From the NCBI RefSeq assembly GCF_009914755.1, contig NC_060944.1: DNA of 64,000 bases. One strand, 5' to 3'. Source of the DNA: the human T2T-CHM13v2.0 reference genome, Homo sapiens. Shown here in pieces: positions 1,047-50,329 of the stretch. The notes under the pieces were generated by a model. It was not told where the DNA came from. It was given only the letters and a program-made list of their open reading frames with translations, and did not search any database. Position numbers and translations under genes: made by a program. How positions within the stretch are numbered: the stretch's first letter is position 1; every line of letters starts with the position of its first letter.

Positions 1047-1647
1047 AGGGATTTATCCAGGCAAAGGCAAGTGCAAAGTCCCTGAGGTGGGCACATCCCT
1101 GGTGTACAGGAGCAATGGCCACCGTGGCTAGGACACGTTCTAGGGGGAGAGTGGTGGGCTTGGAATGGTGAAATCCCTTGCCTCACAAGTAGGGCAGCTG
1201 AGAGCAATATCTTGGGCCTGTCTGACTGTAAAGTGAAGCTTTTAACTGCAAAGGGCCTGACACTCTTTCTAGTGAGGAAAGCCAGAAAGGGTGAGCGTAT
1301 GTTATTACCAGGCATTGCGCCAAACACGTTGGGGAATCACATGGGGGAAGCCCCCACCCTTCTGGGGCTGCTGCTGCCGTAGAGAGGAAGGGAAACTGAG
1401 AAGTCAGCTAAGAGCCTGAGCAGATACTATAAGAATCCATCGTGATTGCTGTTTTCCGTTTCTCTGTGTGTTGGTTGTGGAAGGAGTCTTAGCACGTGTA
1501 CACACAGCATGTGCATTCCTACCTCTGAGTGTGTCTGCCTGAGTGTTTATGGCTGCATAGGGGTCTTGAGTCTGCTGCCCACAAGTTAAACAGTGGTTTA
1601 CTTAGCCCTCCCCAACTGTGTGAATGCAAGTGTGCATGGGCATCTTC

Positions 1648-1752
1648 ATCTTGTCTTTGTGTTTATACATCTCTGTGTTTATACATCCCTTGTCTTTGTG
1701 TTTATACATCCCTTTGTGTTTATACATCGTCTTGTCTTTGTGTTTATACATA
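1648..1752. repeat. Short tandem repeat with core TGTGTTTATACAT, 5 copies, variable spacers
   Basis: Seen directly in the sequence. Confidence 0.9.
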
Positions 1753-1854
1753 CCTGGGAAGGTATCCATGTTCATCAGGAGGCATGTATCCATGTCTGCA
1801 TGTCCAAAATGAGTGTGTGTCATTGTGCATGTGTTTCATGGATCTGCACAGCTG

Positions 1855-2090
1855 TTAAGAGTTCTGTCTCTGTAGCCTGACTCCCTGGGTTGGAATCTAG
1901 GTCTGCCACTTACTGGGTATGACCTTGAGCAAATTACTCAACCCCCTCTCTGCTTCACTTTCCTTATCAGTAAAATGGGCATATTAATAAAACATACCTT
2001 ATAAGGTTGTTGTGAGGATCAAACAAATGAATATATGTGGAATGCTCGGATTGATGCCTGGCACATACTAGGAGCCATGTGTGAGCCGTT
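1855..2090 (+). mobile_element. MIR
   Basis: GACCTTGAGCAAATTACTCAACC..CTGCTTCACTTTCCTTATCAGTAAAATGGG..GTTGTGAGGATCAAAC is the MIR core. Confidence 0.85.
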
Positions 2091-2594
2091 GTGATGTTAG
2101 GGCTCTTTCTGCGTGCATGTGTCTGTCTGGGTCTATCTGGCTGACTGAGCACACTTGCCCCAGCTGATATGCCTCGTAGCATGCAAGTTGGCATGCCTAA
2201 GTTCACACCTTACCTACGTCTCTGTGTGCACAACCTCAGTCTTAGCCCCGCATGTGCAGTGCCCAGCCTCCTCTGCCTGACAAGAGCAAATGTGGCTGGC
2301 TGGGGTGGGGACTGGAGGAAGGGCCAGCAGGAGGGGGCTCCTGCCATGGCCTGGCCAGCTGGACTTTTCACAGCCCAGTGACTTTGTCCCTCTGATCGGC
2401 CAAGTGGCTAGACAGGCAGGCAAAGGAAGTGCCCCTCTTCCAGGCTGTCCCCGGCCTGTGCCATCTCTATCCCTGATCACAGGGATTGGGTTTACACGCC
2501 TGATGCCCCTCGGGATTGGGGGATCCAAGAGAGCAGAGTCAGGCCTGAGCCACCTTTGTGTCCCCACATCATAGCTGTCACTGTTAATGATGGC

Positions 2595-2800
2595 TAACAC
2601 TTACTAAGGACTGGCTGAGAGGCAGGCACTGTATTGGTTCTGTATTGATACATGGTCTAACTTGCCAATCCTCATGCCATTTCCCTGAGATAGGTCCTTC
2701 CATTGTCCCCACTTCATGGGTTTGGAAACTGAGGCACAGAGAAGCGAATTGTTTACTTAACTCACACAGCTGGTAAGTGAAGAGACCAGAATCCAAGCTG
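2595..2800 (-). mobile_element. MIR
   Basis: Antisense core GGAAACTGAGGCACAGAGAAGCGAATTGTTTACTTAACTCACACAGCTGGTAAGT. Confidence 0.8.
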
Positions 2801-3329
2801 ATTAAATACATGTTAAGTGACCCAGCTCATTGAATGAGACACAGAAGAGCCATGTTTGGGATGGAGTGGAAAGATGGAGAACAAGGTGGAGAGTGGTTCT
2901 GGCAGAGGAAGGGGCCAGCTTGGCTCTCTGCAGGGGAGCCCTGGGAATGGGAAGGAAAAAGTGGATGGGGCCAGATGGTAGGGGTCTGGAAGGCCAAGTG
3001 GGGAAGCTTGCATCTGAGCTGGCTCTACTCTTCAGAGACCTGGCCACAGTGAGGTGCCATGGGGACCGGCCACCTGGATCCTTCATTGTGAATAAACTGG
3101 TGAACTGAGCCCAGGTCTCTGGGAGAGCTGGTAGCTAAAGGCAGACTAACAGAACAAAAGCTCTGCTGTCAGTCTGAGGTTGGAATCCCAATGCCCTCAC
3201 CCCCTGGTCACTTCCTACTATGAAACTTCCATTTTCTCATCCAATTCAACTTGTTAAAATGGTTAAAGTCATCCATTATCCCAATGTCTGACATATAGTA
3301 CTCAATAAATGATCATCCACTCTGAAACA

Positions 3330-6434: not shown

Positions 6435-6829
6435 AGGAGGCTGGGAGGGGGTGTAGGAAAGGCGGGAGGGGGTGTAGGAAAGGCAGGAGGCGGTGGCAGC
6501 CGGGTTGGCGGGGTGGGGTAGGGGGTGGGGAGGTGGGGAAGGAGGATGGGGTTGGTTATCAGGTTCTCGTCCTGAATGGCTCTGCCTCTGGCTTTCCCTG
6601 TAGCTTGGGCAGATGCCTTCTCTCGGGACCTCAGTTTTCACATCTGTGAAATGTGGCAATAGGGCCAAGTTGTCAGTGACATTCTTCCCAGATGTCTCCC
6701 AAGTGTCAGGGCTGGATTTATAAGCACCTACTCAGTGCCAGGCCCTCTGTGTTGTCCTGGAGAAAGAGATGAATAAGACACTTAACCCTGCCCTCCAGGA
6801 AGCCATGGACTAAAGGTGAAGGGAGTGTG

Positions 6830-6834
6830 GTGTG

Positions 6835-6885
<51 letters not shown>
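6830..6885. repeat. (TG)n microsatellite
   Basis: About 27 TG units with one CG interruption. Confidence 0.98.
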
Positions 6886-24621: not shown

Positions 24622-25076
<455 letters not shown>

Positions 25077-25701: not shown

Positions 25702-26879
<1,178 letters not shown>

Positions 26880-31447: not shown

Positions 31448-33339
31448 TAGCTACTGAGCTAAGTTGCCCATACACTTGCCTCACCCCGGTTGCGCTGCGA
31501 TTCCTCTTCTAGGAAGGGAAGAAGTGAGCACAATGTCTCCTGATTACTCCATCAGCAGCGCCCAATGCTCTGCAGCTGCAGAACTTATCTCATGGTGCAT
31601 TTTCCTTCCTCAATGTCTCCCAGGGCACCTCCCCTCCAAGATCCCTCCCACGGTTCCCCATGCCTCCAGGCCTAAGTCTAAGCTCAACAGCCTGACCTTC
31701 GAGGCCCTCAGAGCCAACTGCGCCCTTGCTCCACAATGTCACCCCTCTATTTGCGACAGCAGTCCCTGTGAAGGCAGGGATTCTGTTTGCCATTGTAGCT
31801 GATGGAACCCCAGTGCCTGGTACATCCTGAGGCCAGGGGAGCAGAGGATAAGGGCATGCATGAGAGGGTGGCTACCACGTGCCACCCACCCCAGGGACAT
31901 CAAGTAAGACCCTTACCCTCCTTGTGCCTCAGCTTCTCACTCTTCACAACACACAGTAACACACCACACACATATACACTCTGAAACTCACACACACACA
32001 GCAACATAAACACACATCCCACACTCCCCCATACACAGACACGCACACCATGGTGTACGAAGAGCATCGGACCCCCTGGCCATCTGGCCGTCCCCTGAAC
32101 AAGCTGTGCACTTTCCTCCCTCCTTACCTTTGCTCATGCAGTTTCTTCTTCCAAAAACCCACTTCCAACAAGTTCTTCCAGAGCTCTCAGGGATCCTCTG
32201 CACGCAACTCCTCCTCAGTAATCAATGTAATTTCTCAGAGAACACGATGACTTGCCCAAGATCACACAAGAAGTGTGTGGCCGCAGAGCCTGTGTCAGAA
32301 CCCAGGCCTTGGGGTGGGGGGACACTGAGTCCAGCTGCTCTGAAGAGCATCCGAGCATTTATTCAGCCAGCCAGGCGCCTGTTTGTTTGTTTTCCCAACA
32401 CACACTTATTACGCCCCAGGCAGGCTGCTCAGTGCTGGGGACCCAGCCATGAACAAGGCCAGCACACGCAGCCCAGAGAAGCAGACAGATGCTAAACAAG
32501 TAATTACAAGTGTGATGGATGCCACAAAGGAAAAGCAGCAAGGGCCCTGGGAAGAGACAGTGGGGGATGCCAACATCTCCCATTTGTACAAGGTTTGCAG
32601 AAACCTTACCGCAGTGGTGGTCCTGCAGCACCTCCCATCAGAATCCCGTTTAAAGCCCCCAGGCATGCAGACCCAGCACTTCTGGGGAGGGCTGTTTCTT
32701 CCCAGGGAAGGACACTGTGAGGTTTGAGGACCACAGCTTTAGAGGCCTGGGTGAGGGGGTCTGAAGGTGGTAAATGTTTTCTAAGTATCCACCAGATCTC
32801 GGGCTGATTCACTCCTGCCAGGCCACTGAGGTAGGCAGCATTAGGCCCATTTTACAGAGAAGCAAACCAAGGCCTAGAAAACCCCAGTGATTAGTGAGTA
32901 TAGAAGAGGGATTCGAACCCAGGCCTGTCAGACTCCAGATCTCAGGAAGGTCCTTAAAGATGGCCCGGCTCCTGGGTGCCCAGCACACAACCTTGCCAAA
33001 TGGGCTTACAGTTAAAAGGGAAACCACTAGCACTCAGAGACCCCAGGTCACGGATTACAAGGTGCCACTTGTGCTTTACAACAGAGCATGTTAGTCACAT
33101 GGTGCTAAGTGGCTCTGACATCACAGTGGGCATCCAGCCAGGTACCTCCACTGACCAGGTGCATGGCCTCGGGCAAGTTGCTTAACCTCTCTGGGCTCAG
33201 TTTCCTGTCTGTAAGATGGGACAATGGTGGTGGGGAGGAGTTTCTCTGCTTAGGCCTCCTTGCCTCCCCTCCCCCTCTCCCTCCGTCTGCTCCAGTCACA
33301 CCCGCCTCCCAGCCTTTCTCAAACATGTCAGGCCCTGTC

Positions 33340-33481
33340 CCTGCTCAGCAGCTTTGCACATGCTGTTCCTTCTGCCTGAACACTCTTCCTCCACATAGCT
33401 ACATATCTCCGCTCATATGTCACCTTTTCAGAGAGACCTTCCCCGACCCCTTGGCAGAAATCACCCCCACACCACCCCTGT
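33340..33481 (+). mobile_element. L2 (L2a-like) 3' region, left part, interrupted by the VNTR
   Basis: CTTTGCACATGCTGTTCCTTCTGCCTGAACACTCTTCC...ATGTCACCTTTTCAGAGAGACCTTCCCCGACC resembles the L2a 3' consensus. Confidence 0.75.
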
Positions 33482-36400
33482 GTGTCCACCACCCTGTATC
33501 CAGCCCCGTGTCCATCCCCCGTGTCCATCCCCGTGTCCATCCCCCCGTGTCCATCCCCCCGTGTCCATCCCCCCGTATCCATCCCCCCGTGTCCATCCCC
33601 CTGTGTCCATCCCCCTGTATCCACCCCCCCGTGTCCATCCCCCCGTGTCCATCCCCCCGTGTCCATCCCCCCGTGTCCACCCCCCCCGTGTCCACCCCCC
33701 CCGTGTCCACCCCCCCGTGTCCACCCCCCCGTGTCCACCCCCCCGTGTCCACCCCCCCGTGTCCATCCCCCCGTGTCCACCCCCCCGTGTCCACCCCCCC
33801 GTGTCCATCCCCCCCGTGTCCACCCCCCCGTGTCCATCCCCCCCGTGTCCACCCCCCCGTGTCCACCCCCCCGTGTCCATCCCCCCCGTGTCCACCCCCC
33901 CGTGTCCATCCCCCCCGTGTCCACCCCCCCGTGTCCACCCCCCCGTGTCCACCCCCCCGTGTCCACCCCCCCGTGTCCATCCCCCCGTGTCCACCCCCCC
34001 GTGTCCACCCCCCCGTGTCCACCCCCCCGTGTCCATCCCCCCGTGTCCATCCCCCCGTGTCCATCCCCCCGTATCCATCCCCCCGTGTCCATCCCCCCGT
34101 GTCCATCCCCCCGTGTCCATCCCCCCGTGTCCATCCCCCCGTGTCCATCCCCGTGTCCACCCCCCCTGTGTCCACCCCCCCTGTATCCATCCCCCTGTAT
34201 CCATCCCCCCTGTGTCCATCCCCCTGTGTCCATCCCCCTGTATCCATCCCCCTGTATCCATCCCCCTGTATCCATCCCCCCTGTGTCCATCCCCCTGTAT
34301 CCATCCCCCTGTATCCATCCCCCTGTATCCATCCCCCTGTATCCATCCCCCTGTATCCATCCCCCCTGTGTCCATCCCCCTGTGTCCATCCCCGTGTCCA
34401 CCCCCCGTGTCCATCCCCCCGTGTCCATCCCCCCGTGTCCATCCCCCCGTGTCCATCCCCCCGTGTCCACCCCCCCGTGTCCACCCCCCCGTGTCCATCC
34501 CCCCGTGTCCATCCCCCCGTGTCCATCCCCCCGTGTCCATCCCCCCGTGTCCATCCCCCCGTATCCATCCCCCTGTATCCATCCCCCCGTGTCCATCCCC
34601 GTGTCCACCCCCCCTGTGTCCATCCCCCTGTATCCATCCCCCTGTATCCATCCCCCCTGTGTCCATCCCCCTGTATCCATCCCCCTGTATCCATCCCCCT
34701 GTATCCATCCCCCCTGTGTCCATCCCCCTGTATCCATCCCCCTGTATCCATCCCCCTGTATCCATCCCCCTGTATCCATCCCCCCTGTGTCCATCCCCCT
34801 GTGTCCATCCCCCTGTATCCATCCCCGTGTCCACCCCCCGTGTCCATCCCCCTGTGTCCATCCCCCCGTATCCATCCCCCCGTATCCATCCCCCCGTATC
34901 CATCCCCCCGTATCCATCCCCCCGTATCCATCCCCCCGTGTCCATCCCCCCGTATCCATCCCCCCGTATCCATCCCCCCGTGTCCATCCCCCCTGTGTCC
35001 ATCCCCCTGTATCCATCCCCCTGTATCCATCCCCCCGTATCCATCCCCCCGTGTCCATCCCCGTGTATCCATCCCCCTGTATCCATCCCCCTGTATCCAT
35101 CCCCCCTGTGTCCATCCCCCTGTATCCATCCCCCTGTATCCATCCCCCTGTATCCATCCCCCTGTATCCATCCCCCTGTATCCATCCCCCCTGTGTCCAT
35201 CCCCCTGTGTCCATCCCCGTGTCCACCCCCCGTGTCCATCCCCCCGTGTCCATCCCCCCGTGTCCATCCCCCCGTGTCCACCCCCCCGTGTCCACCCCCC
35301 CGTGTCCATCCCCCCGTGTCCATCCCCCCGTGTCCATCCCCCCGTGTCCATCCCCCCGTATCCATCCCCCTGTATCCATCCCCCCGTGTCCATCCCCGTG
35401 TCCACCCCCCCTGTGTCCATCCCCCTGTGTCCATCCCCCTGTATCCATCCCCCCTGTGTCCATCCCCCTGTATCCATCCCCCTGTATCCATCCCCCTGTA
35501 TCCATCCCCCCTGTGTCCATCCCCCTGTATCCATCCCCCTGTATCCATCCCCCTGTATCCATCCCCCTGTATCCATCCCCCTGTATCCATCCCCCCTGTG
35601 TCCATCCCCCTGTGTCCATCCCCCCGTATCCATCCCCCCGTATCCATCCCCCTGTATCCATCCCCCTGTATCCATCCCCCCTGTGTCCATCCCCCTGTAT
35701 CCATCCCCCTGTATCCATCCCCCTGTATCCATCCCCCTGTATCCATCCCCCTGTATCCATCCCCCCTGTGTCCATCCCCCTGTATCCATCCCCCTGTATC
35801 CATCCCCCTGTATCCATCCCCCCTGTGTCCATCCCCCTGTGTCCATCCCCCTGTATCCATCCCCGTGTCCACCCCCCGTGTCCATCCCCCTGTGTCCATC
35901 CCCCCGTATCCATCCCCCCGTATCCATCCCCCCGTATCCATCCCCCTGTATCCATCCCCCCGTATCCATCCCCCCGTGTCCATCCCCCCGTATCCATCCC
36001 CCTGTATCCATCCCCCCGTGTCCATCCCCCCCGTGTCCATCCCCCCGTATCCATCCCCCTGTATCCATCCCCCCGTATCCATCCCCCCGTGTCCATCCCC
36101 CCGTATCCATCCCCCCGTATCCATCCCCCCGTATCCATCCCCCTGTATCCATCCCCCCGTATCCATCCCCCCGTGTCCATCCCCCCGTATCCATCCCCCT
36201 GTATCCATCCCCCCGTGTCCATCCCCCCCGTGTCCATCCCCCCGTATCCATCCCCCTGTATCCATCCCCCCGTATCCATCCCCTGTATCCATCCCCCTGT
36301 ATCCATCCCCCCGTGTCCATCCCCCCGTGTCCATCCCCCCGTATCCATCCCCCTGTATCCATCCCCCCGTGTCCATCCCCCCCGTGTCCATCCCCCCGTA

Positions 36401-39400
36401 TCCATCCCCCTGTATCCATCCCCTGTATCCATCCCCCCGTATCCATCCCCCCGTGTCCATCCCCGTGTATCCATCCCCCTGTGTCCATCCCCCTGTATCC
36501 ATCCCCCTGTGTCCATCCCCCTGTGTCCATCCCCCTGTATCCATCCCCCTGTGTCCATCCCCCCGTATCCATCCCCCCGTATCCATCCCCCCGTGTCCAT
36601 CCCCGTGTATCCATCCCCCTGTGTCCATCCCCCTGTATCCATCCCCCTGTGTCCATCCCCCTGTGTCCATCCCCCTGTATCCATCCCCCTGTGTCCACCC
36701 CCCTGTGTCCATCCCCCTGTGTCCATCCCCCTGTATCCACCCCCCTGTGTCCATCCCCCTGTATCCATCCCCCTGTGTCCATCCCCCTGTATCCATCCCC
36801 CCTGTGTCCATCCCCCTGTATCCATCCCCCTGTGTCCATCCCCCTGTATCCATCCCCCTGTGTCCATCCCCCTGTATCCATCCCCCCTGTGTCCATCCCC
36901 CTGTATCCATCCCCCCGTGTCCATCCCCCCGTGTCCATCCCCCCGTATCCATCCCCCCGTGTCCATCCCCGTGTATCCATCCCCCTGTGTCCATCCCCCT
37001 GTATCCATCCCCCTGTATCCATCCCCCTGTGTCCATCCCCCTGTATCCATCCCCCTGTATCCACCCCCCTGTGTCCATCCCCCTGTATCCATCCCCCTGT
37101 ATCCACCCCCCTGTGTCCATCCCCCTGTATCCATCCCCCTGTGTCCATCCCCCTGTGTCCATCCCCCTGTGTCCATCCCCCTGTATCCATCCCCCTGTAT
37201 CCATCCCCCTGTATCCATCCCCCTGTGTCCATCCCCCCGTATCCATCCCCCCGTATCCATCCCCCCGTATCCATCCCCCTGTATCCATCCCCCCGTGTCC
37301 ATCCCCCCGTATCCATCCCCCCGTGTCCATCCCCCCGTGTCCATCCCCCTGTGTCCATCCCCCCGTGTCCACCCCCCGTGTCCATCCCCCTGTGTCCATC
37401 CCCCCGTATCCATCCCCCCGTATCCATCCCCCCGTATCCATCCCCCTGTATCCATCCCCCCGTATCCATCCCCCCGTGTCCATCCCCCTGTATCCATCCC
37501 CCCGTATCCATCCCCCCGTGTCCATCCCCCCGTATCCATCCCCCCGTATCCATCCCCCCGTGTCCATCCCCGTGTATCCATCCCCCTGTGTCCATCCCCC
37601 TGTATCCATCCCCCTGTGTCCATCCCCCTGTGTCCATCCCCCTGTATCCATCCCCCTGTGTCCATCCCCCCGTATCCATCCCCCCGTATCCATCCCCCCG
37701 TGTCCATCCCCGTGTATCCATCCCCCTGTGTCCATCCCCCTGTATCCATCCCCCTGTGTCCATCCCCCTGTGTCCATCCCCCTGTGTCCATCCCCCTGTG
37801 TCCACCCCCCTGTGTCCATCCCCCTGTGTCCATCCCCCTGTATCCACCCCCCTGTGTCCATCCCCCTGTATCCATCCCCCTGTGTCCATCCCCCTGTATC
37901 CATCCCCCCTGTGTCCATCCCCCTGTATCCATCCCCCTGTGTCCATCCCCCTGTATCCATCCCCCCGTGTCCATCCCCCTGTATCCATCCCCCCTGTGTC
38001 CATCCCCCTGTATCCATCCCCCTGTGTCCATCCCCCCGTGTCCATCCCCCCGTATCCATCCCCCCGTATCCATCCCCCCGTGTCCATCCCCGTGTGTCCA
38101 TCCCCCTGTGTCCATCCCCCTGTGTCCATCCCCCTGTATCCATCCCCCTGTGTCCATCCCCCTGTATCCATCCCCCTGTATCCACCCCCCTGTGTCCATC
38201 CCCCTGTATCCATCCCCCTGTATCCACCCCCCTGTGTCCATCCCCCTGTATCCATCCCCCTGTGTCCATCCCCCTGTGTCCATCCCCCTGTGTCCATCCC
38301 CCTGTATCCACCCCCCGTGTCCACCCCCCTGTGTCCATCCCCCTGTATCCATCCCCCTGTATCCATCCCCCTGTATCCATCCCCCTGTATCCATCCCCCT
38401 GTGTCCACCCCCCTGTGTCCACCCCCCGTATCCATCCCCCCGTATCCATCCCCCCGTATCCATCCCCCTGTATCCATCCCCCTGTATCCATCCCCCTGTA
38501 TCCACCCCCCCGTGTCCATCCCCCCGTATCCATCCCCCCGTATCCACCCCCCTGTGTCCATCCCCCTGTGTCCATCCCCCTGTGTCCATCCCCCTGTATC
38601 CATCCCCCTGTATCCATCCCCCTGTGTCCATCCCCCTGTATCCATCCCCCTGTATCCACCCCCCTGTGTCCATCCCCGTGTCCATCCCCCCGTGTCCATC
38701 CCCCTGTATCCACCCCCCGTGTCCATCCCCCTGTATCCATCCCCCTGTATCCATCCCCCTGTATCCATCCCCCTGTATCCATCCCCCCTGTGTCCATCCC
38801 CCTGTGTCCATCCCCCTGTATCCATCCCCGTGTCCACCCCCCGTGTCCATCCCCCTGTGTCCATCCCCCCGTATCCATCCCCCCGTATCCATCCCCCCGT
38901 ATCCATCCCCCCGTATCCATCCCCCCGTATCCATCCCCCTGTATCCACCCCCCGTGTCCATCCCCCCGTGTCCATCCCCCCGTATCCATCCCCCCGTGTC
39001 CATCCCCCCGTGTCCATCCCCCCGTGTCCATCCCCCCGTGTCCATCCCCCCGTGTCCATCCCCCCGTGTCCATCCCCGTGTGTCCATCCCCCTGTGTCCA
39101 TCCCCCTGTGTCCATCCCCCTGTGTCCATCCCCCTGTGTCCATCCCCCCTGTGTCCATCCCCCCTGTGTCCATCCCCCTGTGTCCATCCCCCTGTGTCCA
39201 TCCCCCTGTGTCCATCCCCCTGTGTCCACCCCCCTGTGTCCACCCCCCTGTGTCCACCCCCCTGTGTCCATCCCCCCTGTGTCCATCCCCCTGTGTCCAT
39301 CCCCCTGTGTCCACCCCCCTGTGTCCACCCCCCTGTGTCCACCCCCCTGTGTCCATCCCCCTGTGTCCACCCCCCTGTGTCCACCCCCCTGTGTCCACCC

Positions 39401-42400
39401 CCCTGTGTCCACCCCCCTGTGTCCATCCCCCTGTGTCCATCCCCCCTGTGTCCATCCCCCCTGTGTCCATCCCCCTGTGTCCACCCCCCTGTGTCCACCC
39501 CCCTGTGTCCATCCCCCTGTGTCCATCCCCCTGTGTCCATCCCCCCTGTATCCATCCCCCTGTGTCCATCCCCCCGTGTCCATCCCCCCGTGTCCACCCC
39601 CCCGTGTCCACCCCCCCGTGTCCACCCCCCCGTGTCCATCCCCCCGTGTCCATCCCCCCGTGTCCACCCCCCCGTGTCCACCCCCCCGTGTCCACCCCCC
39701 CGTGTCCACCCCCCCGTGTCCATCCCCCCGTGTCCATCCCCCCTGTGTCCATCCCCCCTGTATCCATCCCCCTGTGTCCATCCCCCTGTGTCCATCCCCC
39801 TGTGTCCATCCCCCTGTGTCCATCCCCCCTGTGTCCATCCCCCCTGTGTCCATCCCCCTGTGTCCATCCCCCTGTGTCCATCCCCCTGTGTCCATCCCCC
39901 CTGTGTCCATCCCCCCTGTATCCATCCCCCTGTGTCCATCCCCCTGTGTCCATCCCCCCGTGTCCATCCCCCCGTGTCCATCCCCCCGTGTCCATCCCCC
40001 CGTGTCCACCCCCCCGTGTCCACCCCCCCGTGTCCATCCCCCCGTGTCCATCCCCCCGTGTCCATCCCCCCGTGTCCATCCCCCCGTGTCCACCCCCCCG
40101 TGTCCACCCCCCCGTGTCCACCCCCCCGTGTCCATCCCCCCGTGTCCATCCCCCTGTGTCCATCCCCCCTGTGTCCATCCCCCCTGTGTCCATCCCCCTG
40201 TGTCCATCCCCCTGTGTCCATCCCCCTGTGTCCATCCCCCTGTGTCCATCCCCCCTGTGTCCATCCCCGTGTGTCCATCCCCCTGTGTCCATCCCCCTGT
40301 GTCCATCCCCCTGTGTCCATCCCCCCTGTGTCCATCCCCCCTGTGTCCATCCCCCTGTGTCCATCCCCCTGTGTCCATCCCCCTGTGTCCATCCCCCTGT
40401 GTCCATCCCCCTGTGTCCATCCCCCCGTGTCCACCCCCCCGTGTCCACCCCCCCGTGTCCATCCCCCCGTGTCCATCCCCCCGTGTCCATCCCCCCGTGT
40501 CCATCCCCCCGTGTCCACCCCCCCGTGTCCACCCCCCCGTGTCCACCCCCCTGTGTCCACCCCCCTGTGTCCACCCCCCTGTGTCCATCCCCCTGTATCC
40601 ATCCCCCTGTGTCCATCCCCCTGTGTCCATCCCCCTGTGTCCATCCCCCCTGTGTCCATCCCCCTGTGTCCATCCCCCTGTGTCCACCCCCCTGTGTCCA
40701 CCCCCCTGTGTCCATCCCCCTGTGTCCATCCCCCTGTGTCCATCCCCCCTGTATCCATCCCCCTGTGTCCATCCCCCTGTGTCCATCCCCCTGTGTCCAT
40801 CCCCCCTGTGTCCATCCCCCCTGTGTCCATCCCCCTGTGTCCATCCCCCTGTGTCCACCCCCCTGTGTCCACCCCCCTGTGTCCATCCCCCTGTATCCAT
40901 CCCCCTGTGTCCATCCCCCCTGTGTCCATCCCCCCTGTGTCCATCCCCCTGTGTCCATCCCCCTGTGTCCATCCCCCTGTGTCCACCCCCCCGTGTCCAT
41001 CCCCCCGTGTCCATCCCCCCGTGTCCATCCCCCCGTGTCCATCCCCCCGTGTCCATCCCCCTGTATCCATCCCCCTGTATCCATCCCCCTGTGTCCACCC
41101 CCCTGTGTCCATCCCCCCGTATCCACCCCCCCGTGTCCACCCCCCCGTGTCCATCCCCCTGTGTCCATCCCCCTGTATCCACCCCCCTGTGTCCATCCCC
41201 CTGTGTCCACCCCCCTGTGTCCATCCCCCCGTATCCACCCCCCCGTGTCCACCCCCCCGTGTCCATCCCCCTGTGTCCATCCCCCTGTATCCACCCCCCT
41301 GTGTCCATCCCCCCGTGTCCATCCCCCTGTATCCATCCCCGTGTCCACCCCCCGTGTCCATCCCCCTGTGTCCATCCCCCTGTATCCATCCCCCTGTATC
41401 CATCCCCCTGTATCCATCCCCCTGTATCCATCCCCCTGTGTCCATCCCCCTGTGTCCATCCCCGTGTCCACCCCCCGTGTCCATCCCCCTGTGTCCACCC
41501 CCCCGTATCCATCCCCCCGTATCCATCCCCCTGTGTCCATCCCCCTGTATCCATCCCCGTGTCCACCCCCCGTGTCCATCCCCCTGTGTCCATCCCCCTG
41601 TATCCATCCCCCTGTATCCATCCCCCTGTGTCCATCCCCCTGTATCCATCCCCCTGTATCCATCCCCCTGTATCCATCCCCCCTGTGTCCACCCCCCTGT
41701 ATCCATCCCCCTGTATCCATCCCCCTGTATCCATCCCCCTGTATCCACCCCCCTGTATCCATCCCCCCTGTGTCCACCCCCCTGTATCCATCCCCCTGTA
41801 TCCATCCCCCTGTATCCATCCCCCTGTATCCATCCCCCCTGTGTCCACCCCCCTGTATCCATCCCCCTGTATCCACCCCCCCGTATCCACCCCCCCGTAT
41901 CCATCCCCCTGTATCCATCCCCCTGTATCCACCCCCCCGTGTCCATCCCCCCGTATCCATCCCCCCGTGTCCATCCCCCCGTGTCCACCCCCCCGTGTCC
42001 ACCCCCCCGTGTCCACCCCCCCGTATCCATCCCCCTGTATCCATCCCCCTGTATCCATCCCCCCGTATCCATCCCCGTGTCCACCCCCCGTGTCCATCCC
42101 CCCGTATCCATCCCCCCGTATCCATCCCCCCGTATCCATCCCCCTGTATCCATCCCCCTGTGTCCATCCCCCTGTATCCATCCCCGTGTCCACCCCCCGT
42201 GTCCATCCCCCTGTGTCCATCCCCCTGTATCCATCCCCGTGTCCACCCCCCGTGTCCATCCCCCTGTGTCCATCCCCCTGTATCCATCCCCCTGTATCCA
42301 TCCCCCTGTATCCATCCCCCTGTATCCATCCCCCTGTGTCCATCCCCCTGTATCCATCCCCGTGTCCACCCCCCGTGTCCACCCCCCGTATCCATCCCCC

Positions 42401-45400
42401 TGTATCCATCCCCCCGTATCCATCCCCCTGTATCCATCCCCGTGTCCACCCCCCGTGTCCATCCCCCTGTGTCCATCCCCCTGTATCCATCCCCGTGTCC
42501 ACCCCCCGTGTCCATCCCCCTGTGTCCACCCCCCCGTATCCATCCCCCTGTATCCATCCCCCTGTGTCCATCCCCCTGTATCCATCCCCGTGTCCACCCC
42601 CCGTGTCCATCCCCCTGTGTCCATCCCCCTGTATCCATCCCCCTGTATCCATCCCCCTGTATCCATCCCCCCTGTGTCCATCCCCCTGTATCCATCCCCG
42701 TGTCCACCCCCCGTGTCCATCCCCCTGTGTCCATCCCCCTGTATCCATCCCCGTGTATCCATCCCCCTGTATCCATCCCCCCTGTGTCCACCCCCCTGTA
42801 TCCATCCCCCTGTATCCACCCCCCCGTATCCACCCCCCCGTATCCATCCCCCTGTATCCATCCCCCTGTATCCACCCCCCCGTGTCCATCCCCCCGTGTC
42901 CATCCCCCCGTATCCATCCCCCCGTATCCATCCCCCCGTGTCCATCCCCCTGTATCCATCCCCCCGTATCCATCCCCCTGTATCCATCCCCGTGTCCACC
43001 CCCCGTGTCCATCCCCCTGTGTCCATCCCCCTGTGTCCATCCCCCTGTGTCCATCCCCCTGTATCCATCCCCCTGTATCCATCCCCCCGTATCCATCCCC
43101 CTGTATCCATCCCCCTGTGTCCATCCCCCTGTGTCCATCCCCCTGTATCCATCCCCCTGTATCCATCCCCCCGTATCCATCCCCCTGTATCCATCCCCGT
43201 GTCCACCCCCCGTGTCCATCCCCCTGTGTCCATCCCCCTGTATCCATCCCCGTGTCCACCCCCCGTGTCCATCCCCCTGTGTCCATCCCCCTGTGTCCAT
43301 CCCCCTGTGTCCATCCCCCTGTATCCATCCCCCTGTATCCATCCCCCTGTATCCATCCCCCCGTATCCATCCCCCTGTATCCATCCCCGTGTCCACCCCC
43401 CGTGTCCATCCCCCTGTGTCCATCCCCCTGTGTCCATCCCCCTGTGTCCATCCCCCTGTATCCATCCCCCTGTATCCATCCCCCCGTATCCATCCCCCTG
43501 TATCCATCCCCGTGTCCACCCCCCGTGTCCATCCCCCTGTGTCCATCCCCCTGTATCCATCCCCGTGTCCACCCCCCGTGTCCATCCCCCTGTGTCCATC
43601 CCCCTGTATCCATCCCCCTGTATCCATCCCCCTGTATCCATCCCCCTGTATCCATCCCCGTGTCCACCCCCCGTGTCCATCCCCCTGTGTCCATCCCCCT
43701 GTGTCCATCCCCCTGTGTCCATCCCCCTGTATCCATCCCCCTGTATCCATCCCCCTGTATCCATCCCCCTGTATCCATCCCCGTGTCCACCCCCCGTGTC
43801 CATCCCCCCGTGTCCATCCCCCTGTGTCCATCCCCCTGTGTCCATCCCCCTGTGTCCATCCCCCTGTATCCATCCCCCTGTGTCCATCCCCCTGTATCCA
43901 CCCCCCTGTATCCACCCCCCTGTATCCATCCCCCTGTGTCCATCCCCCTGTGTCCATCCCCCTGTGTCCATCCCCGTGTCCATCCCCCTGTGTCCATCCC
44001 CCTGTATCCATCCCCGTGTCCACCCCCCGTGTCCATCCCCCTGTGTCCATCCCCCCGTATCCATCCCCCCGTGTCCATCCCCCCGTGTCCATCCCCCTGT
44101 ATCCATCCCCCCGTGTCCATCCCCCCGTGTCCATCCCCCCGTATCCATCCCCCCGTGTCCATCCCCGTGTATCCATCCCCCTGTGTCCATCCCCCTGTAT
44201 CCATCCCCCTGTGTCCATCCCCCTGTGTCCATCCCCCTGTATCCATCCCCCCGTGTCCATCCCCCCGTATCCATCCCCCCGTATCCATCCCCCCGTGTCC
44301 ATCCCCGTGTATCCATCCCCCTGTGTCCATCCCCCTGTATCCATCCCCCTGTGTCCATCCCCCTGTGTCCATCCCCCTGTATCCATCCCCCTGTGTCCAC
44401 CCCCCTGTGTCCATCCCCCTGTGTCCATCCCCCTGTGTCCACCCCCCTGTGTCCATCCCCCTGTATCCATCCCCCTGTGTCCATCCCCCTGTGTCCATCC
44501 CCCCTGTGTCCATCCCCCTGTATCCATCCCCCTGTGTCCATCCCCCTGTATCCATCCCCCTGTGTCCATCCCCCTGTATCCATCCCCCCTGTGTCCATCC
44601 CCCCGTATCCATCCCCCCGTGTCCATCCCCCCGTATCCATCCCCCCGTATCCATCCCCCCGTGTCCATCCCCGTGTATCCATCCCCCTGTGTCCATCCCC
44701 CTGTGTCCATCCCCCTGTGTCCATCCCCCTGTGTCCATCCCCCTGTGTCCACCCCCCTGTGTCCATCCCCCTGTGTCCATCCCCCTGTATCCACCCCCCT
44801 GTGTCCATCCCCCTGTGTCCATCCCCCTGTGTCCATCCCCCTGTGTCCATCCCCCTGTGTCCATCCCCCTGTGTCCATCCCCCTGTATCCATCCCCCCGT
44901 ATCCATCCCCCCGTGTCCATCCCCCCGTATCCATCCCCCCGTATCCATCCCCCCGTATCCATCCCCCCGTATCCATCCCCCCGTGTCCATCCCCCCGTAT
45001 CCATCCCCCCGTGTCCATCCCCCTGTATCCATCCCCCCGTGTCCACCCCCCGTGTCCATCCCCCCGTGTCCATCCCCCCGTGTCCATCCCCCCGTATCCA
45101 TCCCCCCGTATCCATCCCCCCGTATCCATCCCCCCGTATCCATCCCCCCGTGTCCATCCCCCCGTGTCCATCCCCCCGTATCCATCCCCCCGTGTCCATC
45201 CCCCCGTATCCATCCCCCCGTATCCATCCCCCCGTGTCCATCCCCGTGTATCCATCCCCCTGTGTCCATCCCCCTGTATCCATCCCCCTGTGTCCATCCC
45301 CCTGTGTCCATCCCCCTGTATCCATCCCCCCGTGTCCATCCCCCCGTGTCCATCCCCCCGTATCCATCCCCCCGTGTCCATCCCCGTGTATCCATCCCCC

Positions 45401-47430
45401 TGTGTCCATCCCCCTGTATCCATCCCCCTGTGTCCATCCCCCTGTGTCCATCCCCCTGTGTCCACCCCCCTGTGTCCATCCCCCTGTGTCCATCCCCCTG
45501 TATCCACCCCCCTGTGTCCATCCCCCTGTATCCATCCCCCTGTGTCCATCCCCCTGTGTCCATCCCCCTGTGTCCATCCCCCCGTGTCCATCCCCCCGTA
45601 TCCATCCCCCCGTATCCATCCCCCCGTGTCCATCCCCCTGTGTCCATCCCCCTGTGTCCATCCCCCTGTGTCCATCCCCCTGTGTCCATCCCCCTGTATC
45701 CATCCCCCTGTGTCCATCCCCCTGTGTCCATCCCCCTGTATCCATCCCCCCGTGTCCATCCCCCCGTGTCCATCCCCCCGTGTCCATCCCCCCGTGTCCA
45801 TCCCCGTGTATCCATCCCCCTGTGTCCATCCCCCTGTATCCACCCCCCTGTGTCCACCCCCCTGTGTCCATCCCCCTGTATCCATCCCCCTGTGTCCATC
45901 CCCCTGTATCCATCCCCCCTGTGTCCATCCCCCTGTATCCATCCCCCTGTGTCCATCCCCCTGTATCCATCCCCCTGTGTCCATCCCCCTGTATCCATCC
46001 CCCCTGTGTCCATCCCCCTGTATCCATCCCCCCGTGTCCATCCCCCCGTGTCCATCCCCCCGTATCCATCCCCCCGTATCCATCCCCCCGTGTCCATCCC
46101 CGTGTGTCCATCCCCCTGTGTCCATCCCCCTGTATCCATCCCCCTGTGTCCATCCCCCTGTGTCCATCCCCCTGTATCCATCCCCCTGTGTCCATCCCCC
46201 TGTATCCATCCCCCTGTATCCACCCCCCTGTATCCACCCCCCTGTGTCCACCCCCCTGTATCCATCCCCCTGTGTCCATCCCCCTGTATCCATCCCCCTG
46301 TATCCACCCCCCTGTGTCCACCCCCCTGTGTCCATCCCCCCGTGTCCATCCCCCTGTGTCCACCCCCCGTGTCCACCCCCCTGTGTCCATCCCCCCGTAT
46401 CCATCCCCCCGTGTCCACCCCCCCGTATCCACCCCCCCGTATCCATCCCCCCGTGTCCATCCCCCTGTATCCATCCCCCTGTATCCATCCCCGTGTCCAC
46501 CCCCCGTGTCCATCCCCCTGTGTCCATCCCCCTGTATCCATCCCCGTGTCCACCCCCCGTGTCCATCCCCCTGTGTCCATCCCCCTGTATCCATCCCCCT
46601 GTATCCATCCCCCTGTATCCATCCCCGTGTCCACCCCCCGTGTCCATCCCCCTGTGTCCATCCCCCTGTGTCCATCCCCCTGTGTCCATCCCCCTGTATC
46701 CATCCCCCTGTATCCATCCCCCTGTGTCCATCCCCCTGTGTCCATCCCCCTGTATCCATCCCCCTGTGTCCATCCCCCTGTATCCATCCCCCTGTGTCCA
46801 TCCCCCTGTGTCCATCCCCCTGTGTCCATCCCCCTGTATCCACCCCCCTGTATCCACCCCCCTGTGTCCATCCCCCTGTGTCCATCCCCCTGTATCCATC
46901 CCCCTGTATCCATCCCCCTGTATCCATCCCCCTGTGTCCACCCCCCTGTGTCCATCCCCCTGTATCCATCCCCCTGTATCCATCCCCCTGTATCCATCCC
47001 CCTGTATCCATCCCCGTGTCCACCCCCCGTGTCCATCCCCCTGTGTCCATCCCCCTGTGTCCATCCCCCTGTGTCCATCCCCCTGTATCCATCCCCCTGT
47101 ATCCATCCCCCTGTGTCCATCCCCCTGTGTCCATCCCCCTGTATCCATCCCCCTGTGTCCATCCCCCTGTATCCATCCCCCTGTGTCCATCCCCCTGTAT
47201 CCATCCCCCTGTGTCCATCCCCCTGTATCCACCCCCCTGTATCCACCCCCCTGTGTCCATCCCCCTGTATCCATCCCCCTGTGTCCATCCCCCTGTATCC
47301 ATCCCCCTGTGTCCATCCCCCTGTATCCACCCCCCTGTATCCACCCCCCTGTATCCATCCCCCTGTGTCCATCCCCCTGTGTCCATCCCCGTGTCCATCC
47401 CCCTGTATCCATCCCCCTGTATCCATCCCC
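33482..47430. repeat. Giant GC-rich minisatellite/VNTR, 14-bp unit GT[G/A]TCCA[T/C]CCCCC[C/T], about 1,000 copies, with 12-, 13- and 15-bp length variants
   Basis: Uninterrupted tandem array. The first units at 33482-33520 are degenerate and the array ends abruptly at 47430 (...GTATCCATCCCC|ACTTTATTTT). 13,949 bp / 14 gives about 1,000 units. Confidence 0.99.
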
Positions 47431-47555
47431 ACTTTATTTTTCTCCCCCGCACTGTCACAGCTTTGACCCCCACCTCCCCACGTGAGAAAGTAAGTTGCAG
47501 GAGGGTAGAGGCTTTGTTTTGTCAGTTGTTTCCCCAGCCAAGGCTCTTGACTAGG
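47431..47555 (+). mobile_element. L2 (L2a-like) 3' region, right part, resuming after the VNTR
   Basis: CTTTATTTTTCTCC..GCACTGTCAC..CTCCCCACGTGAGAAAGTAAGTTGCAGGAGGGTAGAGGCTTTGTTTTGT..TTCCCCAG is collinear with the next segment of the L2a consensus. Confidence 0.7.
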
Positions 47556-50329
47556 GCCAACCAGAGTTAACAAGCATGCAAGGGCTCAATCTAGCCAGGG
47601 CTTCTGCATTACCATGGCCTGTGAGGCCCCTGGCAGCCCATTGGAGAGGTCTCTAAGGCATCTGGGAGGCTGGTTCTAAGTATCCCGCCCCTAGCCTGGT
47701 ACACAGCGGGCATCATCAGAACATGTCTGAGGCTGTGCTGACCTGCTGTCTGAGAGCAGACACTGCCCGGGCTTCCTGGACCACAGCAAAGACGCTGAAG
47801 AGAGGGGCAATGAATTCCCCTGGGCCCCCTCCCCAAATGGCCCTGAAACTAGCAGGCAGTGGGAAACCAGCCCCAGGCTTGGCAGGGGCCTGGCAGAGGC
47901 TCAGTGCCGAGGGCCAAGGGCCTGCCAACCTCACTCCCCCAAACAGCGACCAATTGTCCCAGCGGCGCCCAAGTTCCCTGAAGACCTCCCAGCAGTCACT
48001 CTCTCACAGAGACACCCGCTCTCAAAGGGGCCAGCAGTCTGGCTGCTTCCGGCCACGACCACAACCAAGGAGGCTGGACCAGCATGGTGGTCCCAGCTTC
48101 ACAGGAGGCCCCGGGACTTCCGAGCCCTGCTGGGAACTTGCAGCCGGGTGCTTGGTGAGGAGCGGGTGAGGACAGATCCCGGGGGTGGGCCAGTCCTCTT
48201 GGCATTTGTATGCAGGTGCAGACCCATGAACATGAGCTGGAATCTATCAACAGAAAATAAAACACTCAGGGACAGAAGCCTCAGAAGACAAACTGCTGCG
48301 GGGCGAAGGTGGCAGCCACTCCTGCTTGCTGGGTGTGCAACATGTCTCAGGCCCACTCTGGATAGGCATTCATCCAACCCTCAGACAGGGAGATGGGAAC
48401 TGTGGAACCTCTGTGTCTCAGAAAAGGAAATGAGGGAAGCCATTTGCCCAGAAGAGGGAAGCCGGGATTTGAACCCAGGTCTCCTGGCAAGGCCTTGACC
48501 ACTATGCTACATCCTAAACCTCCCTTGATGGCGATGAGGAGGGGCTGGTCACCAGGAGTCACGTTCCCATGACAAAGTCTCATTGGTGCCCCCCAGAGCA
48601 ATGGGTCTGAGCCCTGCTGCAAACCACCTGTGTCAGAATGGGATGCAGGCAGCTTCCTAGAAAGCCCATTCAGACCTGCTGTGGCTACATTTTTCACATG
48701 ATGCTACTGGATTCTGAAGCGCACACTGGAGTTTAAGAACCACTGGCTTAGAGGCAATTCTGACCTAGACAGAACTAGCGCTTTATTTGTCAGGACGATA
48801 GACCTCGAGAAGAGCTGCCTATGTGGGATCTGGAGGTGACAATAAAAACGGCTGTTGATTGGTCACTGAGTATGTGCTCGGTCCTCTTTTAAGTGCTTCA
48901 TTCTCATTTCATCCTTAGCACAACTCTACAGAAGAAGTAACAGTATTATCTTCCCCATTTTAGAGATGAGAAAACTGAGGCACAGGGAGCTTAAGTCTGT
49001 CCTGCCATCCTGTGAGATTCATGTAGTTGTTTGGAGGAGGTCCACCTTCCATCTGGGTGATCCCAGCACCTGCTAGGTGCCCTGTACATGCCTGCGTACA
49101 TGCCCTGTACATGCCTGCAGCACTGAATATGAACTAGGCCAGGTGTGTTTTGGTGGTGCGGGGGTCCCAGGACAGAGCTTCCCAAGGGGCAAGCTTTGGG
49201 AACTCTCCTGACCCAACTGCACCCCCCTACACACATCCACCTTCCTGGGCATACAGTCCTACTTACCCTGGTGTGGCTGAGCAAGGTGCTACCCCCTTCG
49301 TCTTCTTTGTCTATAAGTAGAACTCCTACTATGGAGCTATTAGAGAAATCGGGTCTAAATGGAGCCACTCAGACAAAGCCCTTAGGAAGTGGATAGGAGA
49401 GGGGTCAAGTTTTAGGATGTGGGTGTGAAACCCACCTGGATCCACCACTTGAGCGCTACACAGACTTGCCTGAGCCTTTCATCCTCACATCTGCCTAGTG
49501 AGGATCAGAATTGTATGTAATCACGTGAAGGTGAAATATGCAAACTACCTGTGCACAGTGGGCCTCACTGTACGGTCGCCGGTGAAAAGTACTAAGATTG
49601 GTGCCACAACCCCATCAGCACAACACCCCTGACCCCTCCTTCCAGGGCTCGAGCTAGGGGGTTGTCAGTGCCTGGCTGGTGCTCAGGCCTCTTCAGCTGG
49701 AGCCTGGAGCTGAAGGCCTGTTTGCTGGGTTACAGGAAGATCTGAGCTGTACAGCTGGTGCTGGCGAGGAAAGGTATTTGCATCAGATAATAGGTAAAGT
49801 GTCTTGTTATTCCATTAACTTGTGTAGCAACGACTGCGGCAGAGGGAGGGAGCGTTGGAAAGCCGTAGGGTGGGCAGGGGATGAGCTCACTGACCCACAG
49901 CTAAGCCAGGGACTTCCAGGGGGCCCAGCAGCCTCAACAGGAGCTACAGGGGTAGCCTTTGGGCAGAGGGGTATGGGTGAGGCTGCCCCTCGTTCCAGAA
50001 CCCTAACCTTAAGGTAGGGCCCCAGCTGGGGGCAAAATCGAAAAGTACATCCCAGGCACCACCAGCACCAGTGCCTCCCCCTCCCCCACCCCTAATTGAC
50101 CTCTGAGTCCCTGGGGCTCAGGGGCTCTGACCATGACCACAGCATGCAGCCTCCTGAACAAAAGCATAGATGCTGGAGCCCCCTGGATGGGGGTTTGAAT
50201 CCCGACTCCACCCTTCACAAGTTTGGTAAGTTGCACAGGCACCTAGCATTGCTGGGCTTCCTATTAAATGGGATACTACTATTACACTCATCCCTCGAGG
50301 CCATGTCATCCCTCCTCTGACAAATCCCA

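What the first reader, a model, noticed from the sequence alone, without database searches (positions are those of the whole stretch)
33482..47430. ~14-kb 14-mer minisatellite open in all six reading frames, with a strong-context AUG in most minus-strand units
Seen: no unit variant creates TAA, TAG or TGA on either strand, giving six ORFs of ~4,700 codons. Because 14 is not a multiple of 3, all three frames of a strand encode the same 14-aa repeat, so indels cannot close it. The plus strand gives (VSIPLCPSPCVHPP)n and the minus strand gives (MDTGGWTQGDGHRG)n. On the minus strand each CCAT unit reads GGG-ATG-G (purine at -3, G at +4). On the plus strand, true ATGs at 33163, 33325 and 33417 run in frame into the array. 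Established: expanded GC-rich repeats can be translated into repetitive polypeptides by AUG-initiated or RAN translation. Inference: if transcribed, this is a frameshift-proof source of very long Pro/Cys-rich or Gly/Trp-rich polymers. The openness may simply be a by-product of the unit's composition.
Basis: partly seen in the sequence, partly recalled or inferred. Interest (0 to 1): 0.8.

Follow-up and report, generated by a model that had tools for sequence, protein, structure and literature searches.

The report
Giant stop-free 14-base minisatellite near SIRPA
This is a real, roughly 1000-copy tandem repeat of a 14-base C-rich unit upstream of the human SIRPA gene, and its lack of stop codons in all six frames is best explained by its base composition and very low variant diversity, not by any sign that it codes for protein.

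Summary
Window 33482-47430 is one 14-bp tandem array of about 1000 copies. It has none of the six stop trinucleotides on either strand, giving six open frames of 4686-4785 codons. It carries 835 minus-strand ATGs; all 834 whose context was tabulated read GGG-ATG-G. Three upstream plus-strand ATGs run into it.

The openness is not surprising. 5078 of 20000 random 14-mers are six-frame stop-free as tandem arrays, as are 25-61% of shuffles of the real units. All substitution variation sits at three transition sites, plus C-run and GT length changes; 997 of 1000 units fit one simple grammar. Given 3-4 variant sites, no stop is expected in 21-75% of trials.

A steady-state model matched only on diversity gave zero stops in 4 of 75 and 2 of 60 runs. 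That model predicts about 16-18 variant alleles against the 3 seen. The deficit is of all rare variants, not only stop-making ones, which points to recent amplification or homogenisation.

No RefSeq transcript overlaps the array. There was no Pfam hit in any of the six frames, no protein relative for the one minus-strand frame searched, and no paper on the locus. Best reading: a non-coding, G-quadruplex/i-motif-prone subtelomeric minisatellite. Interest is low.

The parts
33482..47430 (.). 14-bp minisatellite array of about 1000 units. It is C-rich on the plus strand and G-rich on the minus strand, and stop-free in six frames.
   Evidence: 1000 units in 24 distinct forms; 856 of 1000 are exactly 14 bp.
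33486..33511 (.). Degenerate left-edge units. These are the only 3 of 1000 units that break the unit grammar, and they include the single rare substitution.
   Evidence: exceptions at 33486, 33489 and 33500.
33148..33442 (.). Left flank made of old dispersed repeat sequence. Two segments have many diverged copies elsewhere in the genome.
   Evidence: 39 matches elsewhere among 40 scored of 110 candidates, at 75-95% identity, to query positions 9-102 and 138-313. The name 'MIR-like SINE' is recalled, not tested.
33163..33165 (+). Upstream ATG in frame with the array: 4767 codons to the stop at 47464. Context has T at -3 and G at +4.
33325..33327 (+). Upstream ATG in frame with the array: 4713 codons.
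33417..33419 (+). Upstream ATG in frame with the array: 4717 codons to the stop at 47568.
39000..40600 (.). Internal domain enriched in CCAC and CCGT unit types (E, F, C, G), with higher GC. It is an example of the block-wise domain structure.
   Evidence: GC 0.68 at 39-41 kb; unit map.
47431..47640 (.). Right flank, single-copy in the genome. The array ends abruptly here.
   Evidence: sequence; 1 match, itself.

Best explanation
This is a non-coding, GC-skewed subtelomeric minisatellite (VNTR) about 1.89 Mb from the chr20p end and 16.9 kb upstream of SIRPA. It grew, and keeps being reshuffled, by replication slippage, unequal exchange and short-tract gene conversion between units (inferred). 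Its openness in six frames, and the ATG in most minus-strand units, are by-products of two things. First, the consensus unit has only one or two A's, none in a stop context. Second, the array is extremely homogeneous: three old transition polymorphisms are shuffled among copies and there are essentially no new point mutations. That implies recent amplification or rapid homogenisation. The G-rich strand is a continuous G-quadruplex-prone tract and the C-rich strand has the spacing of an i-motif former. This may contribute to its instability. Any effect on neighbouring genes is undemonstrated.
For: Shown:
- One array of period 14 and 999.9 copies.
- 24 unit forms. 997 of 1000 units fit CCA[TC]C{3,8}T?GT([GA]T){1,2}, and the 3 exceptions are the first three units.
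- Among 839 plain 14-bp units only sites 4 (T719/C120), 10 (C287/T552) and 13 (G458/A381) vary. All 8 haplotypes are present and pi = 1.19.
- Multi-unit blocks recur exactly (15-17 units) at distances of 0.4-9 kb, and the unit map shows domains.
- 5078 of 20000 random 14-mers are stop-free on both strands, as are 5069, 10167 and 12276 of 20000 shuffles of the three commonest units.
- Only 4-10 of 42 single substitutions, and 2-3 of 14 transitions, create a stop.
- With S=3 variant alleles, no stop arises in 1552-3020 of 4000 trials. With S=4 it is 836-2714 of 4000.
- In an expansion model with a stop-free consensus, 6 of 21 and 8 of 28 arrays are stop-free.
- Steady-state runs with 3-6 variant alleles gave 50 of 87 and 31 of 65 stop-free arrays.
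- The repeat is unique to this locus. All 89 genome hits of a 28-mer, and all 813 hits of a degenerate dimer, lie in the array.
- No RefSeq transcript overlaps it (hub table). Pfam gave 0 families for 6 frames. No protein relative was found for the minus frame.
- The minus strand has 1000 G-runs of 3 or more with 7-10 nt spacers and 250 non-overlapping G3+N1-12 motifs. Six units fold at -38.1 kcal/mol with G-quadruplexes allowed, against -4.8 without.
- GC-rich VNTRs are enriched within 5 Mb of chromosome ends (PMC7608644, abstract and passages).
Against: - A steady-state turnover model matched only on unit diversity (pi 0.9-1.6) gave stop-free arrays in just 4 of 75 and 2 of 60 runs. Under that null the openness is borderline unusual.
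- The first expansion model, not conditioned on the consensus, gave 8 of 91 and 15 of 90.
- The insulin VNTR in the same genome, a similar 14-bp array of 149.6 copies, does carry 7 stop trinucleotides on one strand, so variants that close frames do arise in such arrays.
- Transcription, translation, length polymorphism and non-B structure were not measured.
- PMC7608644 notes fewer VNTRs on the 20p subtelomere than on most arms.
Confidence: 0.86

Rival explanations
1. The array is transcribed on one or both strands and translated, from any of the 835 Kozak-context AUGs on the minus strand or from the upstream plus-strand AUGs. The product would be very long, frameshift-proof 14-aa-repeat polypeptides.
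For: - Six open frames of 4686-4785 codons.
- 835 minus-strand ATGs; all 834 with tabulated context read GGG-ATG-G.
- Three upstream plus-strand ATGs are in frame.
- No AATAAA or ATTAAA on either strand of the array.
- A minus-strand lncRNA ends 10.9 kb upstream of the array's right edge in the direction of transcription (hub table), so read-through is conceivable.
- Repeat-derived polypeptides are established for some expanded repeats (passages of PMC13196383).
Against: - No annotated transcript overlaps the array (hub table).
- Openness is expected by composition and low variant number.
- The missing variants are of all kinds, not just stop-making ones: S=3 against a median of 16-18 in pi-matched steady-state runs. 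Selection for an open frame would not produce that pattern.
- No Pfam family and no related protein.
Confidence: 0.03
2. The array is a cis-acting structural or regulatory element. A long G-quadruplex/i-motif tract between two RefSeq enhancers would modulate SIRPA or the neighbouring lncRNAs according to its length or unit composition, as reported for the insulin VNTR.
For: - Dense G4 motifs on the minus strand and C5-6 runs every 14 bp on the plus strand.
- The insulin VNTR has the same 14-bp period, forms G4s and i-motifs, and is reported to affect insulin expression (abstracts of PMC12852952, PMC11336075 and PMC2691825 in the listing).
- RefSeq enhancers lie 572 bp to the left and 1936 bp to the right, and SIRPA starts 16.9 kb away (hub table).
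Against: - No expression, chromatin or association data for this locus were found in four searches.
- Only 22 motifs meet the canonical loop limit of 7 nt or less.
- The insulin VNTR sits in the promoter, whereas this array is about 17 kb away.
- The reading is compatible with, rather than an alternative to, neutral origin.
Confidence: 0.09
3. The array, or its size, is an assembly artefact of the reference.
For: Long, near-identical short-unit arrays are hard to assemble. Only one haplotype was available here.
Against: - The unit map is aperiodic, with distinct domains and no long exact self-duplication. The longest exact repeat is 17 units, about 238 bp. That is not what a duplicated or collapsed assembly block looks like.
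- Both junctions are clean.
Confidence: 0.02

Closest known systems
Insulin-linked polymorphic region (INS VNTR, ILPR)
   Same: Both have a 14-bp unit, strong G/C strand asymmetry, G-runs in every unit (G4 on one strand, i-motif on the other) and a position upstream of a gene. Both have a six-frame stop-free consensus and a handful of variant units (abstracts).
   Different: - The unit sequences are unrelated.
- ILPR in this genome has 149.6 copies (2.1 kb) against about 1000 (13.9 kb).
- ILPR has singleton variants and 7 stop trinucleotides on one strand, and no ATG on either strand.
- ILPR lies in the promoter, whereas this array is 16.9 kb from SIRPA.
- Regulatory function is shown for ILPR only.
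GC-rich subtelomeric VNTRs / hypervariable minisatellites
   Same: A GC-rich (63-68%) tandem array within 5 Mb of a chromosome end, with interspersed variant units and block duplications. Subtelomeric enrichment is described in PMC7608644 and in passages of PMC13196383.
   Different: - It is unusually long for such a short unit.
- It is unusually homogeneous: 3 variable sites in 839 plain units.
- Length polymorphism, the defining property of a VNTR, was not testable here.
Translated repeat expansions (RAN or AUG-initiated, e.g. C9orf72 GGGGCC)
   Same: A GC-rich, G4-prone repeat that is open in several frames on both strands (passages of PMC13196383).
   Different: - Those repeats lie inside transcribed genes and their products have been detected. 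This array lies in no annotated transcript and has no product evidence.
- The unit is 14 nt, not 3-6 nt.

Membership tests
Minisatellite / VNTR | Head-to-tail tandem array of a unit of roughly 7-100 bp | tested here: met
   Period 14, 999.9 copies, 92% matches.
Minisatellite / VNTR | Interspersed variant units and block-wise internal structure | tested here: met
   24 unit forms arranged in domains. Exact 15-17-unit blocks recur.
Minisatellite / VNTR | Copy number varies between individuals | not testable with these tools
   Only one haplotype (the window's assembly) is held. The genome tool states it has no relatives.
GC-rich subtelomeric VNTR class | GC above 60% and within 5 Mb of a chromosome end | tested here: met
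   GC 0.63-0.68. Position chr20:1.893-1.907 Mb (hub table). The class is defined in PMC7608644, where the enrichment figure refers to units longer than 15 bp; this unit is 14 bp.
G-quadruplex / i-motif VNTR (ILPR-like) | Four or more G-runs of at least 3 with short loops, repeated along one strand | tested here: met
   1000 G-runs with loops of 7-10 nt. 250 G3+N1-12 motifs but only 22 G3+N1-7 motifs. The predicted G4 fold is -38.1 against -4.8 kcal/mol. This is prediction only.
G-quadruplex / i-motif VNTR (ILPR-like) | Structures form in vitro or in vivo and change expression of the adjacent gene | not testable with these tools
   No data. Four literature searches found nothing on this locus.
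Translated repeat (RAN or AUG-initiated) | The repeat lies within a transcribed unit | tested here: not met
   No RefSeq transcript overlaps 33482-47430 (hub table). The nearest exons end at 25887 and start at 58313. RNA data themselves were not available.
Translated repeat (RAN or AUG-initiated) | An open frame through the repeat | tested here: met
   0 stops in six frames.
Translated repeat (RAN or AUG-initiated) | Repeat polypeptides or ribosome footprints detected | not testable with these tools
   No Ribo-seq or proteomics access.
Protein-coding repeat (coding VNTR) | Related proteins or domains, or an annotated CDS | tested here: not met
   0 Pfam families for six 400-aa frames at E<=1. 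None of 8000 scored candidates reached E<=0.001 for one minus-strand frame. The plus-strand frames were not searched in that database. No CDS in the hub table.

The most novel reading that the evidence does not exclude
In some tissue the array is transcribed on the minus strand, for example by read-through from the lncRNA that ends 10.9 kb away or from flanking enhancers. One of its 835 Kozak-context AUGs then starts translation of a Gly/Asp/Trp-rich 14-aa-repeat polypeptide. Its length would track the VNTR allele, and no indel could close the frame. That would make it a natural, polymorphic repeat-polypeptide source outside any annotated gene.
Probability: 0.03. Interest if true: 0.8.

Novelty: new member of a known kind. 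Interest (0 to 1): 0.15.

Why it matters
As found, this is an ordinary kind of element: a GC-rich subtelomeric minisatellite. Its striking six-frame openness is what composition and low variant number predict, so it should not be counted as coding potential.

Two things are mildly useful. First, the array is very large and unusually homogeneous, which marks it as recently amplified or rapidly homogenised. It is probably highly length-variable, and it lies 17 kb from SIRPA, a gene reported to be under strong balancing selection (PMC10853003 passages). Second, the result gives a baseline for this scan. About a quarter of random 14-mers, and 25-61% of shuffles of this unit's composition, give six-frame-open arrays. 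'Open in all frames' alone is therefore not a signal.

Tried and rejected
- Literature. Six rotations or strands of the unit as text terms found 0 papers. 'SIRPA' + 'VNTR' gave 14 papers, judged unrelated from the listing of 13 titles and abstract starts. '20p13' + 'minisatellite' gave 6 papers, judged unrelated from the listing. 'SIRPA' + 'tandem repeat' + 'long-read' gave 5 papers; the one opened (PMC10853003, passages) concerns coding balancing selection, not the array.
- Term look-ups in three recent tandem-repeat papers found no mention of SIRPA or this locus: 10.1101/2025.06.15.659631, 10.64898/2026.01.20.700717 and PMC13196383. Nor did PMC7608644. Their supplements were not examined and may list the locus in VNTR catalogues.
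- Protein-level searches were empty: Pfam and the large protein database with one minus-strand frame. The plus-strand frames were not sent to the large database.
- I looked for other copies of the repeat in the genome and found none outside the array.
- The right flank is single-copy, so I could not show that the array interrupts one dispersed element.
- The first expansion simulation mixed two questions: a drifting consensus and segregating variants. One search separated them. In the pi- and S-matched runs the consensus itself carried a stop in 61 of 82 and 50 of 78.
- Selection for an open frame was considered and rejected as the cause of openness. The array lacks rare substitutions of every kind, not only the 10-24% that would make stops.
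Full report
**1. What is there**

Tandem Repeats Finder reports a single array at window 33481-47430 with period 14, 999.9 copies, 92% matches and 2% indels. No comparable array occurs elsewhere in the window. The 13,949 bases are C 7467, T 3463, G 1614 and A 1405. GC is 0.63-0.68 and GC skew is -0.59 to -0.68 in every 1-kb bin.

Anchoring on CCA splits the array into 1000 units of 24 distinct forms. 856 units are 14 bp and 144 are other lengths. 997 of 1000 units fit the grammar CCA[TC]C{3,8}T?GT([GA]T){1,2}. The three exceptions are the first three units at the left edge.

Among the 839 plain 14-bp units only three sites vary, all by transitions. Site 4 is T719/C120, site 10 is C287/T552 (a CpG/TpG site) and site 13 is G458/A381. 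All eight haplotypes are present. Everything else is C-run length or GT-count variation.

**2.

It is correct in every checked detail.
- None of TAA, TAG, TGA, TTA, CTA or TCA occurs in the array. The six frames stay open for 4686-4785 codons, with the bounding stops in the flanks.
- The three frames of each strand give the same repeat peptides and the same composition.
- The minus strand has 835 ATGs, spread 283/275/277 over the frames. All 834 with available context read GGG-ATG-G. The plus strand has no ATG inside the array.
- The ATGs at 33163, 33325 and 33417 are the only 3 of 6 upstream ATGs in 33101-33482 that run into the array, for 4767, 4713 and 4717 codons.

**3. Is the openness more than chance?**

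*The consensus.* A tandem 14-mer exposes only 14 trinucleotides per strand. 5078 of 20000 uniform random 14-mers, and 2976 of 20000 at 41% GC, are stop-free in all six frames. So are 5069, 10167 and 12276 of 20000 shuffles of the three commonest real units.

*The variants.* Only 4-10 of 42 possible single substitutions of the major units make a stop on either strand. The figure is 2-3 of 14 for transitions and 2-4 of 14 for one-base deletions. I drew 3 or 4 variant alleles from a transition-biased spectrum, with or without CpG hypermutability, and with or without all haplotype combinations. This left the array stop-free in 1552-3020 and 836-2714 of 4000 trials.

*Forward simulations.* The answer depends on the model, and I report all of them.
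- A steady-state duplication/deletion/mutation model matched on unit diversity (pi 0.9-1.6; observed 1.19) gave stop-free arrays in only 4 of 75 runs (CpG x10) and 2 of 60 (no CpG effect).
- Those same runs carry a median of 16 and 18 variant alleles. Only 2 of 75 and 0 of 60 have four or fewer, against 3 observed. So that model is contradicted by the data for a reason unrelated to stops.
- Steady-state runs that have 3-6 variant alleles are stop-free in 50 of 87 and 31 of 65 cases.
- A model of a small old array that expands quickly gave 8 of 91 and 15 of 90 when matched on pi and S.
- One search showed that in this expansion model the consensus itself had drifted into a stop in 61 of 82 and 50 of 78 matched runs. 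Among runs with a stop-free consensus, 6 of 21 and 8 of 28 were entirely stop-free.

Taken together, the probability of no stop given what the array looks like is roughly 0.2-0.75.

**4. What the variant pattern says**

The unusual feature is not the missing stops but the missing rare variants of every kind. There are no private substitutions in 997 interior units (13,911 bases).

Selection for an open frame would remove only the 10-24% of substitutions that create stops. It would not remove the rest. The pattern instead indicates that most copies were made recently or are continually overwritten.

With a recalled germline rate of 1.2e-8 per base per generation, zero private changes puts a 95% upper bound of about 18,000 generations on the mean time since a unit was last copied. 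This is an inference.

The mechanism is also inferred, from three observations:
- exact blocks of 15-17 units recur 0.4-9 kb apart;
- compound units travel together (the 12-bp form is followed by the 13-bp form in 29 of 36 cases);
- all eight haplotypes of the three sites exist.

The mechanism these point to is block duplication by slippage or unequal exchange, plus short-tract conversion that reshuffles three old polymorphisms.

**5. Context**

The repeat is unique to this locus in the assembly. All 89 genome-wide hits of a 28-mer lie in the array. The 813 genome-wide hits of a degenerate dimer with up to 2 mismatches equal the 813 hits in the window.

The left flank (33148-33442) consists of old dispersed repeat sequence: 39 diverged matches elsewhere among 40 scored of 110 candidates. 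It looks like a MIR-type SINE, which is a recalled name and not tested. The right flank is single-copy.

According to the hub's RefSeq table, no transcript overlaps the array. Minus-strand lncRNAs start 7.6 kb to the left and end 10.9 kb to the right. Enhancers lie 572 bp to the left and 1.9 kb to the right. SIRPA starts 16.9 kb to the right.

**6. Coding tests**

Six 400-aa translations gave 0 Pfam families at E<=1. A minus-strand frame found no protein at E<=0.001 among 8000 scored candidates. The plus frames were not searched there. Expression and peptides cannot be tested with these tools.

**7. Structure potential**

The minus strand has 1000 G-runs of 3-8 bases separated by 7-10 nt. That gives 250 non-overlapping G3+N1-12 motifs, but only 22 with loops of 7 nt or less. 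Six units fold at -38.1 kcal/mol when G-quadruplexes are allowed, against -4.8 without. The plus strand has none. These are predictions only.

**8. Comparison with known elements**

The closest described element is the insulin VNTR. It is a 14-bp G-rich unit forming G-quadruplexes and i-motifs (abstracts of PMC2691825, PMC12852952 and PMC11336075 in the listing).

In the same assembly it spans 149.6 copies (L011 719-2843). It has 11 unit forms including singletons, 0 stops on the C-rich strand as read, 7 on the other (CTA x6, TCA x1) and no ATG on either strand. So a similar array has an open consensus too, and acquires a few stops once it holds more independent variants.

More generally the array fits the GC-rich subtelomeric VNTR class (PMC7608644, abstract and passages; passages of PMC13196383). 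It is not a demonstrated member of the translated-repeat class, because the transcript criterion is not met.

**9. Literature**

No paper in the searchable library contains the unit or discusses a VNTR at SIRPA or 20p13. These were judged from the search listings, plus passages of PMC10853003 and term look-ups in four tandem-repeat papers. Supplementary VNTR catalogues were not examined and may list the locus.

**10. Verdict**

The 'by-product' caveat is supported and translation is unsupported. The element is a very large, very homogeneous, locus-unique, G4-prone minisatellite. It is a new member of a known kind and of low interest for coding potential. It has modest interest as a probably recent and highly variable expansion next to SIRPA.

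Noticed in passing
window 33668-46432: A degenerate 13-base recombination-hotspot motif, typed from recall, matches 57 times inside the array out of 62 matches in the window (shuffle mean 19.4). All array matches fall in units that combine the CCGT and CCAC variants. The control shuffled the whole window rather than the array's composition, so the excess may be compositional.
   Followed up: partly
window 33148-33442: The left flank of the array is old dispersed repeat sequence, with 39 diverged copies elsewhere among 40 scored. It resembles a MIR-type SINE by recall. The first array units are degenerate (33486-33511), while the right edge is abrupt and single-copy. This suggests polar growth from a proto-repeat at the end of that element.
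   Followed up: partly
window 33482-47430: All eight haplotypes of the three variable sites exist. Near-identical multi-unit blocks differ only at those same three sites. This implies recurrent mutation at those sites or sub-unit gene conversion, not a simple tree of duplications.
   Followed up: partly
window 33482-47430: According to the hub note only 6% of the window is soft-masked in NCBI's file, yet the array alone is 21.8% of the window. So this 14-kb tandem repeat is not masked there.
   Followed up: no
L011 719-2843 (G000:C11:2249218-2251342): The insulin VNTR in this assembly has 149.6 copies in 11 unit forms. It carries 7 stop trinucleotides on one strand.
   Followed up: yes
window 24633-24798; 6825-6885; 1650-1755: Ordinary microsatellites and short tandem repeats elsewhere in the window: (TTTC)42, (GT)31 and a 39-bp repeat of 2.5 copies.
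   Followed up: no
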